A DNA stretch of 19,865 bases, taken from the UHGV virus genome UHGV-1448388; one strand, given 5' to 3'. Below the pieces are notes generated by a model that ran no database searches, was not told where the DNA came from, and saw only the letters and a list, made by a program, of their open reading frames with translations. Numbering within the stretch: the first letter of the stretch is position 1; every line of letters begins with the position of its first letter. The stretch comes from a virus. This document shows positions 1,744-6,334 of this stretch, piece by piece. Position numbers and translations under genes: made by a program.

Positions 1744-1806
1744 GTCGTTAATTCCTATGCGTGGTTTTACGATACCGAAGCCCTGACTGTTCCCGCAGTT
1801 GGGGCT

Positions 1807-2010
1807 TCAACTTTCTGCTCTATCAGTTATATCTTTCCCTTCGTATACTTCACCTATATTGCTAATGCTGGCAGAACATCCAAGATGCTTGTATCTTATG
1901 ATGTCCAACACGCAGTCACTACACAGCATCCGACCTGTTTCTTTAGAGTAAATGTATGTTTGATCAGCGTCTGATTCGCTAATGCCGCAGAAACAACATT
2001 CTTTACTCAT
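1807..2010 (-). CDS. Small Cys4 zinc-ribbon-like protein (67 aa), hypothetical
   Basis: ORF with CxxC (C5, C8) and CxxC (C30, C33) pairs. Strong GAGGGGG Shine-Dalgarno about 7 nt upstream. Its ATG overlaps the arc stop codon (ATGA), implying translational coupling. Confidence 0.45.
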   Translation of the reverse strand: MSKECCFCGISESDADQTYIYSKETGRMLCSDCVLDIIRYKHLGCSASISNIGEVYEGKDITDRAES

Positions 2011-2147
2011 ACCATCACCCCCTCTCTCTTCAAGCTGTCCAGCACCCGTTTAATTACTTCTGCGCTAAACGATCGACACTCTTCCTTTGCTTTCTCTTCA
2101 AGGATTTTTTCTAACTTCTCTGGCATACGCAGTGTTTTTACCTTCAT
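2007..2147 (-). CDS. arc: Arc-like ribbon-helix-helix repressor (46 aa from the internal ATG)
   Basis: MKVKTLRMPEKLEKILEEKAKEECRSFSAEVIKRVLDSLKREG has the beta-strand plus two-helix RHH layout and a size similar to P22 Arc. GGAGGA Shine-Dalgarno 5-6 nt upstream of the ATG at 2147. The longer 68-aa ORF-track version would run through the promoter region. Confidence 0.6.
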   Translation of the reverse strand: MKVKTLRMPEKLEKILEEKAKEECRSFSAEVIKRVLDSLKREGVMV

Positions 2148-2252
2148 TGCATCCTCCGCTGTATGTGGTACGCATACATAGTATTTAGGTACGCATTGAT
2201 AGTCAATAGACACCTACATATCCTGTGGTAAAAAATTATTCAGGGTGTGCCG
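2148..2252. promoter_or_regulatory. Divergent immI-type promoter/operator region (candidate back-to-back sigma70 promoters with repeat elements)
   Basis: Plus-strand candidate: -35 TTGATA (2196-2201), 17-bp spacer, -10 TATCCT (2219-2224). Minus-strand candidate: -35 TTGACT (plus 2201-2206), 17-bp spacer, -10 TACTAT (plus 2178-2183). The two -35 hexamers lie within the palindrome ATTGA-tag-TCAAT (2195-2207). Direct repeats GGTACGCAT at 2167-2175 and 2188-2196 (21 bp apart), and TGTGGTA at 2164-2170 and 2224-2230. Confidence 0.45.
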
Positions 2253-2510
2253 ATGTCTGATCGTAAGTACAAAAACCCTCAAGTGAATCTGAGGCTTCCT
2301 GTAGAGATAAAGGAACGTCTTATTGAACTGGCTGAGGCTAATTCTCGTTCATTAAATGCTGAGATGGTCGCTGCACTTGAAGCATGGACCGAAAAAAATA
2401 AACACATTCAAGCACTAGACCTTGCAACTATAGCATCACGATTGATAGATCTTGAACATGATGTTGAGAAGTTGAAATGCATGTATGGCAACAATAAAGA
2501 CGAAAGTTAG
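2253..2510 (+). CDS. Ribbon-helix-helix DNA-binding protein (Mnt/Arc family paralogue, 85 aa)
   Basis: ATG at 2253; the ORF-track start is a GTG two codons upstream. NPQVNLRLPVEIKERLIELAEANSRSLNAEMVAALEAW fits the RHH beta-strand/helix/helix pattern. AGGGTG Shine-Dalgarno-like sequence upstream. Confidence 0.6.
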   Translation: MSDRKYKNPQVNLRLPVEIKERLIELAEANSRSLNAEMVAALEAWTEKNKHIQALDLATIASRLIDLEHDVEKLKCMYGNNKDES

Positions 2511-2533
2511 AGATACTAACTTGGAGTGATGGC

Positions 2534-2782
2534 ATGGCTAGAGATGATCCGCACTTTAACTTCCGTATGCCTTTGGAAGTAAGAGAAAAATTGAAATTAA
2601 GAGCCGAGGCTAACGGAAGGTCAATGAACTCTGAGTTATTACAAATCGTTCAGGATGCGCTATCAAAACCATCACCGATTGCAGGTTACCGTGACGAAGC
2701 AGAACGTATGGCTGATCAGCAAGCAGAAATTGTTAAGAAGATGGTGTTTGAAACCCTGAAAAAAATGTACGAGACCAGATAG
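2534..2782 (+). CDS. mnt: Mnt repressor (ribbon-helix-helix)
   Basis: 82-aa product MARDDPHFNFRMPLEVREKLKLRAEANGRSMNSELLQIVQDALSKPSP... closely matches P22 Mnt as I recall it. GGAG Shine-Dalgarno 7 nt upstream. Transcribed opposite to arc-ant, as in P22 immI. Confidence 0.85.
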   Translation: MARDDPHFNFRMPLEVREKLKLRAEANGRSMNSELLQIVQDALSKPSPIAGYRDEAERMADQQAEIVKKMVFETLKKMYETR

Positions 2783-2824
2783 GTCAATGTTTGTTCGTTG
2801 ATATAAAATAACAAGGTATACATT

Positions 2825-3424
2825 GTGATTGAGATAGGCGTTATGGCCATCCTGAATCAAGAGCCAGGAAAAATTGAAAACGTTTTTTCTGACATATCAA
2901 CATCTATCGAGCGTTCAATTTCAGACTTTGATCGCAGTCATAGCGGCTCTTTGTCTAAAAAACAGGCTTCTGAAGCTCTTAGCAAGATCTACTGCGTTAT
3001 GTCACCTGTAGAGGAAGTTTGCAAAAAGTACATTACATTCATTGACATATTAAGTAATGGTACAGAAGAAGATATTTCCTCACTTAATATTCAACATGAC
3101 GATGTAGATATGTTGAACGATCAGATATCTAAGCTTGATTATGGTATCGCGAAACTGTTGTATACCTTCTTCATCGCTGAGAACAGCGATGCGTGGAAGC
3201 CCCATATGTCAACTCTTACAACAATGAAAAACCACTCAATCAATACTTTTATAGAATACAAAAGGCTAACAATGGGGCTTGTGACGCTAGCAATGCAGCA
3301 CATACCACTATCATATGCTGAACCTGAAGAGTTCACTGAAGAAGAGTTGGCTTCCTTCAAGAAATCAGTTGAAGATTCACATAAAAGATTTGGCATGGAA
3401 GCACCAAAATGGAAAACCGCATAA
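2825..3424 (+). CDS. Hypothetical acidic protein (199 aa; possibly 193 aa from ATG 2843), first gene of an AT-rich accessory cassette
   Basis: Intact ORF in AT-rich DNA. Start is GTG at 2825 (AAGG 8 nt upstream) or ATG at 2843. The 3' end overlaps the next gene by 16 nt. Acidic composition; no family I recognise. Confidence 0.5.
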   Translation: MIEIGVMAILNQEPGKIENVFSDISTSIERSISDFDRSHSGSLSKKQASEALSKIYCVMSPVEEVCKKYITFIDILSNGTEEDISSLNIQHDDVDMLNDQISKLDYGIAKLLYTFFIAENSDAWKPHMSTLTTMKNHSINTFIEYKRLTMGLVTLAMQHIPLSYAEPEEFTEEELASFKKSVEDSHKRFGMEAPKWKTA

Positions 3425-3828
3425 GCATTGTTGTAGATGCAGCGGCTGGACCATTAGAACAATACTTTGCGAAGGCTCTTGCAAACTACAAAAACAGAGG
3501 CACCGTTTCAGCTTATCTTGGTAAGATTGGTGGGTTTGAGAGAAACCATCACGCCGTCTTATCGGGAATTTACAAGTCGCACATCAGGATCCCTGGAGTA
3601 GATGATCCTTGGTTAAGAACAACGCCAATACATCGTAGAGTTAGCGATAACTTTTTGATATTTGCGGTACACAACACATATCCAATTCATATCCAGATCA
3701 TTGCTATCATTAAACCTGATGGTCATGAGAAGGTAAAAAAACTATTGCCAGCCATCATTGATATAACTGAAAAAAGATTCCAATCTCTAAATGAGAGGGA
3801 GCTTAACTCGTTGATTTCATACAAATAA
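3409..3828 (+). CDS. YafO-family toxin-like protein (139 aa)
   Basis: Motifs ANYKNRG, FERNHHAVL and NFLIFAVHN...IHIQIIAIIKPDGHEK...EKRF align with E. coli YafO (FISYKRDG, FERVAHIHL, AHLVYCQG...AWLLIAILKPEPHK...AEAFRMRF) as I recall it. Basic protein whose start overlaps the upstream acidic ORF. Confidence 0.55.
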   Translation: MENRISIVVDAAAGPLEQYFAKALANYKNRGTVSAYLGKIGGFERNHHAVLSGIYKSHIRIPGVDDPWLRTTPIHRRVSDNFLIFAVHNTYPIHIQIIAIIKPDGHEKVKKLLPAIIDITEKRFQSLNERELNSLISYK

Positions 3829-3850
3829 AATATCAACTAAGGGGGTTGGT

Positions 3851-4174
3851 GTGTATACAACAGTTATCGCGATAGCTATCGCACTCATTGTGGTTCAGTA
3901 CCAACTGGCATCTTTAAAACAAAAGATATCTGACCTCAAGACTGAGAACGAAGCACTTAAAAACTCAATAAAAGATGAGAAGAACAAACTATCATTCACT
4001 ATATCTGATATTGAGCAATCCATTGAAATTATTGAGAATAATATTAACAGATTAAAAAAAGAAGATATTCATGAAATCAATGACAATATCAAGGATTTGA
4101 AATCTTGGCTTAGGAATGTAGGACAAATCGCCACATCAACACGAGATAAGCTCAATACATCCATGGATGATTAA
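3851..4174 (+). CDS. Small membrane-anchored coiled-coil protein (107 aa), hypothetical
   Basis: GTG start with strong AAGGGGG Shine-Dalgarno 5 nt upstream. N-terminal hydrophobic helix YTTVIAIAIALIVVQYQLA, followed by a K/E-rich heptad-like coiled-coil. Very AT-rich. Its stop codon abuts the gp16 stop codon. Confidence 0.5.
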   Translation: MYTTVIAIAIALIVVQYQLASLKQKISDLKTENEALKNSIKDEKNKLSFTISDIEQSIEIIENNINRLKKEDIHEINDNIKDLKSWLRNVGQIATSTRDKLNTSMDD

Positions 4175-6334
4175 TTACTCCTGTGCCATTCCGCTTAGCG
4201 ACGCTACAATGCCAGCCCTCGCTAAGCGATTGAACTCTTCGTTTCCAACTGCATCGCGTATTGCTTTTACGGCGGCTTTATTTGCCATAAATCTGCGTTC
4301 CGCCGCCGCTAATGCTTCTTTACTTCCGCCAGCTCTTACTGCTTTCGTGGCTTCCTGAACTGCTTTCTCTATCGCATACCGACCACTACGTGTGGTGGCA
4401 ATTTTAGATACAGCACCTTTTAGCCCGGCGCCAACTAAAGCACCTGCGGCAGCGCCTGCAATGCCCCCTCCTGCTCCACCAACAATGGCACCTGATGTTG
4501 AATTGGCAATTGCATTTAACACTGTTGATGTGACGTTGGATAAACCGGCATCCAGATCGCGTAGTACATTGGCAGTTCTCCCTGTTCTTTCAATATACTG
4601 CTGAGGTTTCACTGCTGCTCTTGCAAGAGTGCCATATGCATCTGCAATTCTTCCAAGCTCTGAGGAATATCGGCTAATGGCTTTTACATTTTGTGGAGTG
4701 AGTATCTCTGCGATATGGTTAATTCCTGCTGCATCAGCTTTACCACCACGTACACCATGCGAGATAGCATCTTGCAACATTGATGATATAGCAGGAACAC
4801 GCTCTGATTCTGGCAGCGCGCGGATCATAGAATGGAATCCAGCAGGACCATTAAGACCTTTAGCTGACGATGATTGAAGGGATTTTACTCCATTCGTAAT
4901 CAGTGCATCTGTTGCCAAATCACGCCCGAAAACAGACTCTGCACTCTCTTGTGCTGATAACCTCGCTTTAGACAGATCATTAGCTTTTTGCCAGTCATCA
5001 AGAAATCCGCCGTTTTCCGCCATTGTGCGCATATCATCAGTAATTGCCCGGCGTATTTCCCCTGCTCTCCTTGCCGCATTTGCCTCTCCGCTACGCTTAT
5101 ATTTTTGCTCCGCATCAGCAAATTTCGCTCTCCATGCTTTCATGCCGTCAAATGTTACTCCACCTTGATTGTTTGCCTGAACAAACTGTTTCATTTCAGG
5201 AGTAAGCGGTATGCCGGCAGATCGCTCTGCCTGAATAACGGCATTACCATTTAGCATTCTTGCTTTTTGATTTGGCATTGTTGACCGCACGTCATCCCAT
5301 GCCGCGCGCTCGGCATCCTTCATCTGATCAAGATTTTGAAGAATCCTTTGTTTTATAGCCGCACTTTTTTCTGATGCCGTTCCAGATGCGGCCCCAAATT
5401 CATCAAGGTTTCGACTTAACTTTGATGATATTTCGTTAAATGCTGCCTGATGGGCGTCCTGAACAATTCCTGGTGTTGATGCCAATGCGCCTTCGGCTTG
5501 TGCAATTCCACGACTTCCAGATCGCATTCCTGGTGTTAATGCGTTTATATCAATTCCAGCAGACTCAGCCGCTTTTGCTACATCTTCGGACACATTAGCG
5601 GCCTGACTGGCAATTGACTGACGCCCAGCACCTGACTTTGCCATCCTAGAAACATCATTAGCAGAATTCAGTGCTGCACCACCAAGAGCCTGTGAAACCC
5701 TTGGCGCAATAACGCGCCCGACACCTGAAAGAACGCCTTGAGCACCAATATTGATACCACCGTTAATGGCAGCATTTTGTGCAAAGTCGCCCTCCTGATT
5801 TGCAGCATCAGCAAGAGAACCTGCAATCATGTTTCCGGCGGAACCGATATCTCCAGCGAGCTTTGCTGTCGCTCCAGCAGCTTTTGCCGCTGTGCCAATT
5901 GGCAGGAGATACCCACCAATTGTTTCACCGGCTTGCGCGTAAGGGTCTGTCGGTCGCTCGGCAGGGCGATAAACATCATCCAAAACCTTGGGGCCGCCAA
6001 GCCCCTGGCTGATTGCATTAATCAGACTTGCGCCACCCTGCAATACGTCAAATGGTATGTTTACCAGACCACGACCAGCCTGTTCTGCAATTTGCCCTGC
6101 ACTTTGACCACCTGTGAGCCAATCACCAGCTTGTTGCATCAATGATGGTTCTTCTTTCTGCTGCTGAGGCGGAGGGTATGCTGCATAAAACTGATCTCTT
6201 GCTTCAGCCCATTTGTCACCAGCCTTAGGGGCAACAACCTCATCAAAATATTGCGCTTGAGCCTGTGCTTTCTGTTCTTCAGTTAACGCCTGATACTGTG
6301 GAGAAGCGATAACATCTTTCCATGCTTTAGCCAT
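4175..6334 (-). CDS. DNA ejection (injection) protein, P22 gp16-like
   Basis: 719-aa ORF in the gp16 position after gp20. Ala/Gly-rich with low-complexity segments. Start overlaps the gp20 stop (TAATG). Confidence 0.7.

What the first reader, a model, noticed from the sequence alone, without database searches (positions are those of the whole stretch)
2825..4174. AT-rich three-gene accessory cassette wedged between mnt and the ejection-protein gene gp16
Three plus-strand ORFs (199 aa acidic; 139 aa basic YafO-like; 107 aa membrane-anchored coiled-coil) form a tight operon-like unit. The first two overlap by 16 nt and the third follows after 22 nt with a strong Shine-Dalgarno. The block is visibly far more AT-rich than the flanking structural genes and ends exactly at the gp16 stop codon. 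It sits at the boundary between the ejection genes and immI, where P22 itself carries superinfection-exclusion cargo (sieA). I do not recognise this gene combination as a described system; it looks like a toxin-antitoxin-based abortive-infection or superinfection-exclusion module.
Basis: partly seen in the sequence, partly recalled or inferred. Interest (0 to 1): 0.85.

Follow-up and report, generated by a model that had tools for sequence, protein, structure and literature searches.

The report
YafO toxin pair beside resident hkcB
The "three-gene cassette" in phage CUS-3 is a mobile two-gene toxin-antitoxin-like module (a YafO-family RNase toxin plus an undescribed ~200-residue helical partner) sitting beside hkcB, an unrelated membrane-protein gene that always abuts the ejection gene; this is ordinary prophage cargo apart from the unnamed partner family.

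Summary
The window is phage CUS-3 (CP000711, 100% identity). All three ORFs, the 16-nt overlap, the 22-nt spacer with its Shine-Dalgarno, the low GC and the stop-to-stop junction with gene 16 are real. The three genes are not one system.

ORF7 (199 aa) plus ORF8 (139 aa, Pfam YafO_toxin 43.6 bits) recur as an overlapping pair without hkcB in at least seven other genomic settings. These include Pectobacterium and Xenorhabdus chromosomes, a Salmonella P22-like prophage, two lambdoid prophages and a siphovirus.

hkcB (98% identical to epsilon34 gp14, 50% to HK620 hkcB) always lies stop-to-stop with gene 16, whatever fills the slot next to mnt. In SEN22 that slot holds a HicA toxin pair. None of the three proteins resembles P22 SieA, orf59a or HK620 hkcC, and none matches PADLOC.

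The new element is ORF7. It belongs to a tiny family (18 clusters among 1.84 billion representatives) with no Pfam, NCBIfam or PDB relative. It is unrelated to YafN. Its C-terminal tail comes in two types, each tied to a different downstream protein.

Best reading: a type II-like toxin-antitoxin moron with a new antitoxin family, probably expressed from the prophage. Toxicity, neutralisation and phage defence are all untested.

The parts
2247..2782 (+). Two tandem mnt-type ribbon-helix-helix repressor genes (2247-2510 and 2534-2782). They lie directly upstream on the same strand and are the probable source of prophage-state transcription into the pair.
   Evidence: Pfam Arc 3.4e-10, and Arc 1.1e-27 plus Repressor_Mnt 2.5e-15. 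Annotated mnt in CP000711. Promoter-like site at 2196-2224, and no terminator-like site between 2300 and 4400 on the + strand. Gaps are 23 and 42 nt.
2800..2819 (+). AT-rich element ATATAAAATAACAAGGT just upstream of ORF7. It is conserved in the close homologue loci and is a possible -10 box, operator or Shine-Dalgarno.
   Evidence: The element is shared by the CUS-3, Salmonella, Pectobacterium and Xenorhabdus copies although all other flanking DNA differs. The chromosomal copies add a TTGCTG/TTGCGT hexamer 16-17 nt upstream. Any function is inferred.
2825..3424 (+). ORF7 (ECRS218_0007): acidic, all-helical, 199 aa (193 aa if it starts at ATG 2843). It is the putative antitoxin or partner of ORF8 and belongs to a small unnamed family (phrog_18235 / phrog_35514).
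   Evidence: No Pfam, NCBIfam or PADLOC match. 16 clusters among 5.8 billion proteins and 18 among 1.84 billion representatives. AF2 pLDDT 76, seven helices. Only generic helical-bundle fold matches. Always followed by an overlapping or abutting small ORF.
3409..3828 (+). ORF8 (ECRS218_0008): basic 139-aa member of the YafO_toxin family and the putative mRNA-cleaving toxin. Its start overlaps the end of ORF7 by 16 nt.
   Evidence: Pfam PF13957 at 43.6 bits against a cut-off of 25. phrog_1651 at 6.5e-37. PGAP names it a YafO family toxin. H58, R77, P103, H106, E121 and F124 are invariant in an alignment that includes K-12 YafO.
3829..3850 (+). Mosaic junction and translation-initiation region of hkcB (CAACTAAGGGGGTTGGT before the GTG).
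   Evidence: Megablast homology to SEN22 and epsilon34 begins at window position ~3835. AAACTAAGGAGGTTGGT(G/A)TG is shared with epsilon34, SEN22, HK620 and Salmonella locus L008.
3851..4174 (+). hkcB: 107 aa, one N-terminal transmembrane segment followed by a coiled coil. It is a resident gene of the ant moron and is not part of the toxin pair.
   Evidence: 98% identical to epsilon34 gp14, 93% to SEN22_15 and 50% to HK620 hkcB. phrog_5962. Stop-to-stop with gene 16 in every locus examined. dN/dS 0.3-0.4.
4175..6334 (-). Gene 16 homologue (ejection / DNA transfer protein), the convergent neighbour that bounds the region.
   Evidence: Pfam Phage_P22_gp16 is recorded on the homologues.

Best explanation
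The region is a composite of two independent elements that share a strand.

(1) ORF7-ORF8 is a mobile bicistronic type II-like toxin-antitoxin module.
- ORF8 is a divergent YafO-family (RelE/ParE-superfamily) endoribonuclease toxin.
- ORF7 is its cognate neutralising partner and belongs to an undescribed all-helical family unrelated to YafN.
- Proposed mechanism (inferred): in the lysogen the pair is transcribed from Pmnt read-through, and perhaps from its own weak promoter. The 16-nt overlap couples translation so that ORF7 is made with ORF8.
- ORF7 holds ORF8 inactive, probably through its C-terminal helix and tail (about residues 172-199, ...SHKRFGMEAPKW).
- When ORF7 is lost or displaced, ORF8 cleaves mRNA and arrests translation. 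The trigger could be superinfection by another phage, a shut-off of expression, or loss of the prophage.
- The outcome would be abortive infection or prophage addiction.

(2) hkcB is a separate membrane-anchored coiled-coil protein fixed next to gene 16 in one lineage of P22-like phages. Its function is unknown.

Shown here: gene organisation, YafO family membership, strict pairwise co-occurrence, independence from hkcB, and purifying selection. Inferred: toxicity, neutralisation by binding, the role of the tail, expression in the lysogen, and the biological role.
For: - Toxin identity: Pfam YafO_toxin hit above its cut-off, and residues shared with K-12 YafO.
- Canonical arrangement: the acidic upstream gene (pI 5.0) and basic downstream gene (pI 9.65) overlap by 16 nt. 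The antitoxin-then-toxin order matches the order listed for the YafO family in PMC11980606.
- The same pair recurs in unrelated contexts: a Pectobacterium chromosome beside gcvP; two different Xenorhabdus chromosomal sites; a Salmonella P22-like prophage; a lambdoid prophage downstream of a cI-like repressor; a lambdoid nin region; and a siphovirus tail-gene moron.
- Pairing persists down to 19-24% identity in the ORF7 family.
- Tail modularity: the tail ending SHK..G.E.P.W always precedes a YafO toxin. The tail P.WV.SG.DF..W always precedes an unrelated phrog_5954 protein (hhalign probability 0.2%).
- Selection: pN 0.14-0.25 against pS about 0.8.
- Expression context: no terminator-like site from mnt through hkcB.
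- Slot behaviour: in SEN22 the same slot holds a HicA-toxin pair.
Against: - No experiment shows toxicity, binding or phage resistance.
- ORF7 is about twice the size of typical type II antitoxins and has no detectable DNA-binding domain.
- The ORF8 structure prediction failed (pLDDT 40), so the RNase fold is unconfirmed.
- ORF8 scores far below the NCBIfam YafO equivalog (13.9 against 153 bits). Its pairwise similarity to K-12 YafO is confined to one short motif.
- Neither gene matches a PADLOC model.
- The promoter scan found no more sites than expected by chance.
Confidence: 0.72

Rival explanations
1. Three-gene integrated system. ORF7, ORF8 and hkcB would act together as one membrane-linked abortive-infection or superinfection-exclusion machine.
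For: In CUS-3 the three genes lie on one strand with spacings of -16 and +22 nt and no predicted terminator. All 44 E. coli genomes that carry the pair appear to have the CUS-3-type arrangement.
Against: The pair exists without hkcB in at least seven other genomic settings. hkcB exists without the pair in epsilon34, SEN22, HK620, L028, L030, L036 and L037. The homology breakpoint lies between ORF8 and hkcB. The 44 E. coli copies are at least 95% identical, so they amount to one lineage rather than independent support.
Confidence: 0.04
2. The pair is not a toxin-antitoxin system. ORF8 would be a regulated RNase used by the phage itself, for example for host or competitor mRNA turnover or as a counter-defence. 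ORF7 would be a specificity, targeting or scaffold subunit rather than an inhibitor.
For: ORF7 is large (199 aa), forms a structured helical bundle and has no antitoxin-like domain. The strongly conserved motif IERS(I/F)SDFDRSH in the closer homologues suggests a function beyond simple masking. Several copies sit inside lytic-cycle operons, in the nin region and a tail module.
Against: Stand-alone chromosomal copies at three or more unrelated sites with no phage genes nearby fit selfish toxin-antitoxin behaviour. The opposite charges, translational coupling and toxin-specific tails are the classic antitoxin signature.
Confidence: 0.14
3. The pair is a true toxin-antitoxin system whose role is prophage or island addiction (post-segregational killing), with no anti-phage activity.
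For: It has a patchy, mobile distribution in prophages and small chromosomal islets. There is no PADLOC match. Its position behind maintenance repressors (mnt, cI-like) would tie expression to the lysogenic state.
Against: Nothing here discriminates between addiction and defence. This differs from the best explanation only in biological role, and the two roles can coexist.
Confidence: 0.3
4. hkcB, not the pair, is the exclusion function of this locus. It would be a positional analogue of SieA that interferes with ejection-protein (gp16/gp20) conduit assembly by related phages.
For: hkcB occupies the sieA position next to gene 16 and, like sieA, is transcribed convergently with it. It is membrane-anchored. 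It is invariably stop-to-stop with gene 16. A block of about 82% nucleotide identity spans the 3' half of hkcB and the 3' end of gene 16 between CUS-3 and HK620, whose gp16 proteins are only 26% identical overall; SieA escape mutations map to the gp16 C-terminus (PMC10883804). CUS-3 has no sieA homologue in this window.
Against: hkcB shows no sequence similarity to SieA. It has one transmembrane segment against three in SieA, and it lacks the FxRYPxEAxxFNK motif. By the positive-inside rule the coiled coil is more likely cytoplasmic (inference). There are no functional data.
Confidence: 0.2

Closest known systems
E. coli K-12 YafN-YafO type II toxin-antitoxin system (dinB operon)
   Same: The toxin falls in the same Pfam family (PF13957) and shares invariant His/Arg/Pro/Glu/Phe positions. 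The gene order is antitoxin then toxin, in a tight bicistron.
   Different: Pairwise similarity to K-12 YafO is limited to one 11-residue motif, and the NCBIfam equivalog score is far below its cut-off. The partner is not YafN or Phd/YefM-like (no BLAST hit; hhalign probability 1.6%). It is twice as long, all-helical, and has no recognisable DNA-binding domain. It is carried by phages and islets rather than lying in the SOS dinB operon.
Modular ('promiscuous') antitoxin domains such as Panacea/DUF4065, which pair with many toxin folds (compared from my own knowledge of the literature, not tested here)
   Same: One conserved helical body is combined with different C-terminal tails that track two unrelated downstream proteins.
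   Different: There is no sequence or fold match to any known antitoxin domain. Only two partner types were seen, and the family is tiny (18 representative clusters).
P22 'ant moron' / immI-sieA region of P22-like phages (PMC2629481; PMC10883804)
   Same: It occupies the same genomic slot between gene 16 and the tailspike gene, with the same mnt/arc/sar/ant neighbours. Cargo is hypervariable and expressed independently of the late operon.
   Different: CUS-3 carries no sieA, orf59a or hkcC homologue. Its cargo is a YafO-type pair plus hkcB.
HK620 hkcB / epsilon34 gene 14 (named, function unknown)
   Same: The third ORF is a full-length orthologue (50% and 98% identity) in the same position and orientation.
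   Different: Nothing of note. It is the same gene family, and no member has a demonstrated function.
HicAB-type module in Salmonella phage SEN22 (SEN22_17/16)
   Same: A toxin-antitoxin-type pair occupies the same mnt-hkcB slot in a sister phage.
   Different: It lies on the opposite strand and uses an unrelated toxin (HicA) and partner (a DUF1902-containing 217-aa protein).

Membership tests
Pfam YafO_toxin (PF13957) | Profile score above the curated gathering threshold | tested here: met
   ORF8 scores 43.6 bits against a cut-off of 25, E 3.2e-11, covering profile positions 2-98 of 101. Homologues in L023 and L024 score 58.9 and 67 bits.
YafO proper (NCBIfam PRK09885 equivalog, orthologue of E. 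coli K-12 YafO) | Equivalog-level score | tested here: not met
   13.9 bits against a cut-off of 153. BLASTP against K-12 YafO aligns only 11 residues, E 0.027.
RelE/ParE (BECR-fold) toxin superfamily | BECR fold of the toxin | tested here: inconclusive
   The AF2 model of ORF8 built on 8 sequences has mean pLDDT 40 and is unusable. A profile search of PDB sequences found nothing.
RelE/ParE (BECR-fold) toxin superfamily | mRNA cleavage causing translation arrest | not testable with these tools
   This needs in vivo or in vitro RNA cleavage assays.
Type II toxin-antitoxin system | Two small adjacent co-oriented genes, tightly spaced or overlapping, one encoding a known toxin domain | tested here: met
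   A 16-nt overlap is conserved in the 11 close-homologue loci compared (Salmonella, Pectobacterium, Xenorhabdus). More distant pairs overlap by 1-50 nt or abut within 4 nt.
Type II toxin-antitoxin system | Strict co-occurrence of the two genes across unrelated genomic contexts (mobile module) | tested here: met
   Every ORF7-family locus examined has a downstream partner.
Type II toxin-antitoxin system | Antitoxin binds and neutralises the toxin | not testable with these tools
The test needs co-expression rescue and pull-down experiments.
Type II toxin-antitoxin system | Antitoxin carries a DNA-binding domain for autoregulation (typical, not universal) | tested here: not met
   ORF7 gave no HTH, RHH, AbrB or Phd match in Pfam or NCBIfam. 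Its fold matches are generic helical bundles only.
YafN / Phd-YefM antitoxin family | Sequence or profile similarity of the upstream gene product | tested here: not met
   No BLAST alignment. hhalign probability 1.6%.
P22 SieA superinfection-exclusion protein | Sequence similarity, three transmembrane segments, and the FxRYPxEAxxFNK motif (PMC10883804) | tested here: not met
   None of the three ORFs is similar to SieA. tblastn of SieA against the whole window gave only a chance match, E 6.6, and the motif is absent. hkcB has one hydrophobic segment.
HK620 hkcB / epsilon34 gp14 family (phrog_5962) | Full-length similarity and a position convergent with and abutting gene 16 | tested here: met
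   98%, 93% and 50% identity over the full length. phrog_5962 at 5.7e-58. Position confirmed.
Known anti-phage defence systems (PADLOC-DB v2) | A significant match of any component to a defence-system model | tested here: not met
   ORF8 gave no hit. ORF7 and hkcB gave only coiled-coil-type noise, E at or above 9e-4 and at most 16 bits.
Tripartite toxin-antitoxin-chaperone (TAC) systems | A third gene encoding a SecB-like chaperone conserved alongside the pair | tested here: not met
   hkcB has no SecB match and is absent from the pair's other loci.

The most novel reading that the evidence does not exclude
The ORF7 family would be a previously unrecognised, phage-borne modular antitoxin or sensor domain. 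Its conserved helical body (AW.PH motif; IERSxSDFDRSH in the closer members) would sense an infection cue, and an exchangeable C-terminal tail would dock at least two unrelated toxins (YafO-type and phrog_5954-type). That would make it a new family of prophage-encoded abortive-infection modules and would explain why YafO toxins are reported without a partner in one prophage survey (PMC10449497). Separately, hkcB could be a SieA-independent exclusion factor that co-evolves with the gp16 C-terminus.
Probability: 0.22. Interest if true: 0.6.

Novelty: new variant of a known kind. Interest (0 to 1): 0.38.

Why it matters
Toxin-antitoxin modules in prophage cargo slots are common. The toxin here is already auto-annotated and the locus is a published hot spot, so most of the finding is ordinary.

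The useful parts are these:
- It gives a concrete cognate-partner candidate for a subgroup of YafO-family toxins that current annotation shows as lone toxins next to a 'hypothetical protein'.
- That partner family is small and has two tail types matched to two unrelated downstream proteins. This makes a tractable system for studying how antitoxin specificity is swapped.
- It separates hkcB, a gene fixed against the ejection gene in a sieA-like position, as its own candidate for exclusion assays in the P22, CUS-3 and HK620 genetic systems already in use.

Tried and rejected
- Defence-system identity: PADLOC gave only coiled-coil noise. Rejected.
- Homology to P22 SieA, orf59a or HK620 hkcC: none. 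Rejected.
- ORF7 as a YafN-like antitoxin: no similarity. Rejected.
- The afdb50 fold library was unavailable.
- The ORF8 structure prediction was too poor to use (pLDDT 40).
- The search for related loci with the broad family alignment failed for lack of a conserved stretch. The narrower alignment returned only close relatives.
- Distant homology between the two downstream toxin types: hhalign probability 0.2%, so I treat them as unrelated.
- Literature: nothing on hkcB function and nothing on a YafO partner of this type.
I replaced it with the RefSeq sequence and do not rely or on the PDB search that included it, except as a negative result.
Full report
**Identity of the window.** Megablast places window 2200-4700 at 100% identity on Enterobacteria phage CUS-3 (CP000711.1), the P22-like K1-specific prophage of E. 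coli RS218. The three ORFs are annotated there as ECRS218_0007 and ECRS218_0008 (both 'hypothetical protein') and ECRS218_0009 ('hkcB'). They lie between two mnt genes and the gene 16 homologue.

**Check of the observation.**
- The ORFs lie at 2825-3424 (199 aa), 3409-3828 (139 aa) and 3851-4174 (107 aa) on the + strand.
- The first two overlap by 16 nt. The third follows after 22 nt, behind AAGGGGG.
- ORF7 is acidic (pI 4.99) and ORF8 basic (pI 9.65). hkcB has one N-terminal hydrophobic segment at residues 3-23.
- GC is 0.389 for the pair and 0.335 for hkcB, against 0.487 for gene 16 and 0.477 for the window. The immI genes to the left are also low at 0.42.
- The hkcB stop (4172-4174) abuts the gene 16 stop (4175-4177) with no spacer.
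- ORF8 matches Pfam YafO_toxin at 43.6 bits against a gathering score of 25.
- Against Salmonella, Pectobacterium and Xenorhabdus homologues, synonymous sites are saturated (pS about 0.8) and pN is 0.14-0.25. Both are therefore real genes under purifying selection. hkcB has dN/dS 0.3-0.4.
The only ambiguity is the ORF7 start: GTG 2825, or ATG 2843, which the 121-member cluster P0001 uses.

**The three genes are not one unit.** Two lines of comparative evidence separate them.

*The pair travels alone.* ORF7-like and ORF8-like genes were found without hkcB in these places:
- Pectobacterium chromosomes, between an ABC-transporter operon and gcvP, with the same 16-nt overlap.
- Two different chromosomal sites in Xenorhabdus.
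- A Salmonella P22-like prophage, where a different 41-aa membrane ORF sits in the hkcB position.
- A lambdoid prophage, downstream of a cI-like repressor.
- A lambdoid nin region.
- The tail module of Flyfo siphovirus Tbat2_3 (hhalign probability 98.4% that its 190-aa upstream protein belongs to the ORF7 family).

*hkcB stays with gene 16 whatever lies to its left.*
- epsilon34 has a PEGA-like lipoprotein gene on the opposite strand.
- HK620 has hkcC.
- SEN22 has a HicA toxin plus a DUF1902 protein.
- Further prophages have other cargo.
- Other E. coli prophages carry a different 121-aa plus 111-aa overlapping pair.
- Of 5426 complete E. coli genomes, 74 match this hkcB allele (72 over most of its length) but only 44 carry the pair.
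- The nucleotide homology with SEN22 and epsilon34 begins at about window 3835, 7 nt after the ORF8 stop. It includes a shared translation-initiation sequence, AAACTAAGGAGGTTGGTGTG.

This slot is the 'ant moron' that Villafane, Casjens and colleagues described as being in rapid flux, with CUS-3 included in their comparison (PMC2629481).

**The pair.**
- ORF8 is a divergent YafO-family protein. It is above threshold for the Pfam family and far below the NCBIfam equivalog for YafO proper (13.9 against 153 bits).
- Only one short motif aligns pairwise with K-12 YafO.
- In a multiple alignment that includes the RefSeq K-12 protein, H58, R77, P103, H106, E121 and F124 are invariant.
- PGAP already names it a 'type II toxin-antitoxin system YafO family toxin' in RefSeq genomes.
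- YafO is listed among the RelE/ParE-superfamily mRNA-degrading toxins, with antitoxin-then-toxin gene order (PMC11980606).
- I could not confirm the fold. The AF2 model from 8 sequences had pLDDT 40, and a profile search of PDB sequences found nothing.

**ORF7, the unexpected part.**
- It has no Pfam, NCBIfam or PADLOC match and no PDB sequence relative.
- It shows no relation to YafN.
- A word-indexed search of 5.8 billion proteins returned 16 clusters. An exhaustive profile search of 1.84 billion representatives returned 18.
- In PHROGs the family is split between phrog_18235 and phrog_35514, both 'unknown function'.
- AF2 gives a moderately confident model (pLDDT 76): seven helices, then a low-confidence acidic linker around residues 158-171, then a final helix at 172-188.
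- Across the family, W124 and W196 are invariant, and A118, H127 and P194 nearly so. The motif IERS(I/F)SDFDRSH marks the closer members.

**Two tail types track two downstream proteins.**
- Type 1 members end in ...SHK.(F/L)G.E.P.W, and a YafO_toxin protein follows every one of them. They occur in the window, L005/6, L008, L009-11, L013-16, L023, L024/25 and L032.
- Type 2 members carry P.WV.SG.DF..W plus an extension. A 125-130-aa protein of phrog_5954 follows them; it has no Pfam match and no detectable similarity to the YafO group. They occur in L007, L026, L033 and L034/35.
- A conserved body with a partner-specific C-terminal tail is what one expects of an antitoxin whose tail binds the toxin. 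That is an inference.

**Expression (inferred).**
- In CUS-3 the genes mnt1, mnt2, ORF7, ORF8 and hkcB are co-oriented, with gaps of 23, 42, -16 and 22 nt.
- A promoter-like site lies before mnt1, and no terminator-like site lies between mnt and gene 16 on the + strand. The scan as a whole is no richer than shuffled sequence.
- The pair also follows mnt directly in the Salmonella prophage and in a metagenomic phage with unrelated tail genes. There Mnt is 62% identical but the ORF7 relative only 27%.
- In L023 it follows a cI-like repressor. Placement behind maintenance repressors suggests expression in the lysogen.
- The chromosomal copies keep a plausible promoter of their own (TTGCTG/TTGCGT, 16-17 nt, TAGAAT/TAAAAT). 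Its -10-like part, ATATAAAAT.A.AAGG, survives in CUS-3.

**hkcB.**
- It is 98% identical to epsilon34 gp14, 93% to SEN22_15 and 50% to HK620 hkcB, with a strongly conserved C-terminus.
- It has no similarity to SieA, and no SieA homologue or SieA motif occurs anywhere in the window.
- SieA is a 162-164-aa inner-membrane protein with three transmembrane segments. It blocks DNA delivery through gp16 and gp20. Only 22 of 66 sequenced P22-like phages carry it, and CUS-3 is itself excluded by P22 SieA at under 1e-8 (PMC10883804).
- hkcB therefore sits where sieA sits but is a different protein. An exclusion role is a hypothesis only.

**Verdict.**
- The 'undescribed three-gene system' dissolves into a mobile YafO-type pair plus a resident, already named gene, at a published cargo hot spot.
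- What is new is modest but real: an unnamed partner family for a subgroup of YafO toxins, with tail-encoded partner specificity.
- I file it as a new variant of a known kind (a type II-like toxin-antitoxin module with a new antitoxin family).
- Phage defence, addiction, or both remain open, because nothing computed here can distinguish them.

Noticed in passing
window 1745-1812 (+): A sar antisense RNA (Rfam RF00262, 84.6 bits against a gathering score of 43, full-length) lies between ant and the arc-like ORF. CP000711 labels this stretch only as 'bsq2 boundary sequence'.
   Followed up: partly
window 2007-2213 (-) and 1807-2010 (-): There is an unannotated Arc-like ORF (Pfam Arc E 7.5e-8; the true start is probably internal) followed by a 67-aa ORF with two CxxC pairs, both upstream of ant. 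The 2008 comparison (PMC2629481) said CUS-3 apparently lacks arc. The same Arc, small ORF, ant order appears in L008 and L028.
   Followed up: partly
window 4053-4387, and L003 (HK620): A block of about 82% nucleotide identity between CUS-3 and HK620 spans the 3' half of hkcB and the last ~70 codons of gene 16. The gp16 proteins are reported as only 26% identical overall (PMC10883804). The convergent stop-to-stop junction leaves no room for a terminator between the two genes.
   Followed up: partly
L008 6664-6789 (+): In a Salmonella P22-like prophage the hkcB position holds a 41-aa single-transmembrane ORF. It sits behind the same AAACTAAGGAGGTTGGT initiation sequence and is followed by a terminator-like hairpin. 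The slot next to gene 16 may therefore accept different small membrane proteins.
   Followed up: no
L007 2065-2457, L026 889-1266, L035 1034-1411, L033 881-1123: This is a second conserved downstream protein family (phrog_5954; motifs LPGRNK, LIQYA, LWHYHVG, FGDWTS) with no Pfam or NCBIfam match. It always follows type 2 ORF7-family genes and is a candidate new toxin.
   Followed up: partly
L036 / L037 2102-2795 (+): Other E. coli P22-like prophages fill the mnt-hkcB slot with a different overlapping pair of 121 aa and 111 aa. These give only weak rubredoxin-like and XhlA-like hints, and their function is unknown.
   Followed up: no
window 2247-2782 (+): There are two tandem mnt-type genes. 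The first (87 aa) has the Arc domain but no Mnt C-terminal domain, while the second (82 aa) has both.
   Followed up: no
L005 5960-6000, L009 / L010 3370-3410: In the chromosomal copies the element upstream of the pair reads AACCT(A/G)TA(A/G)AATTATAAGG, which is partly palindromic (ACCTATAA..TTATAAGGT). It could be an operator overlapping the -10 box.
   Followed up: no
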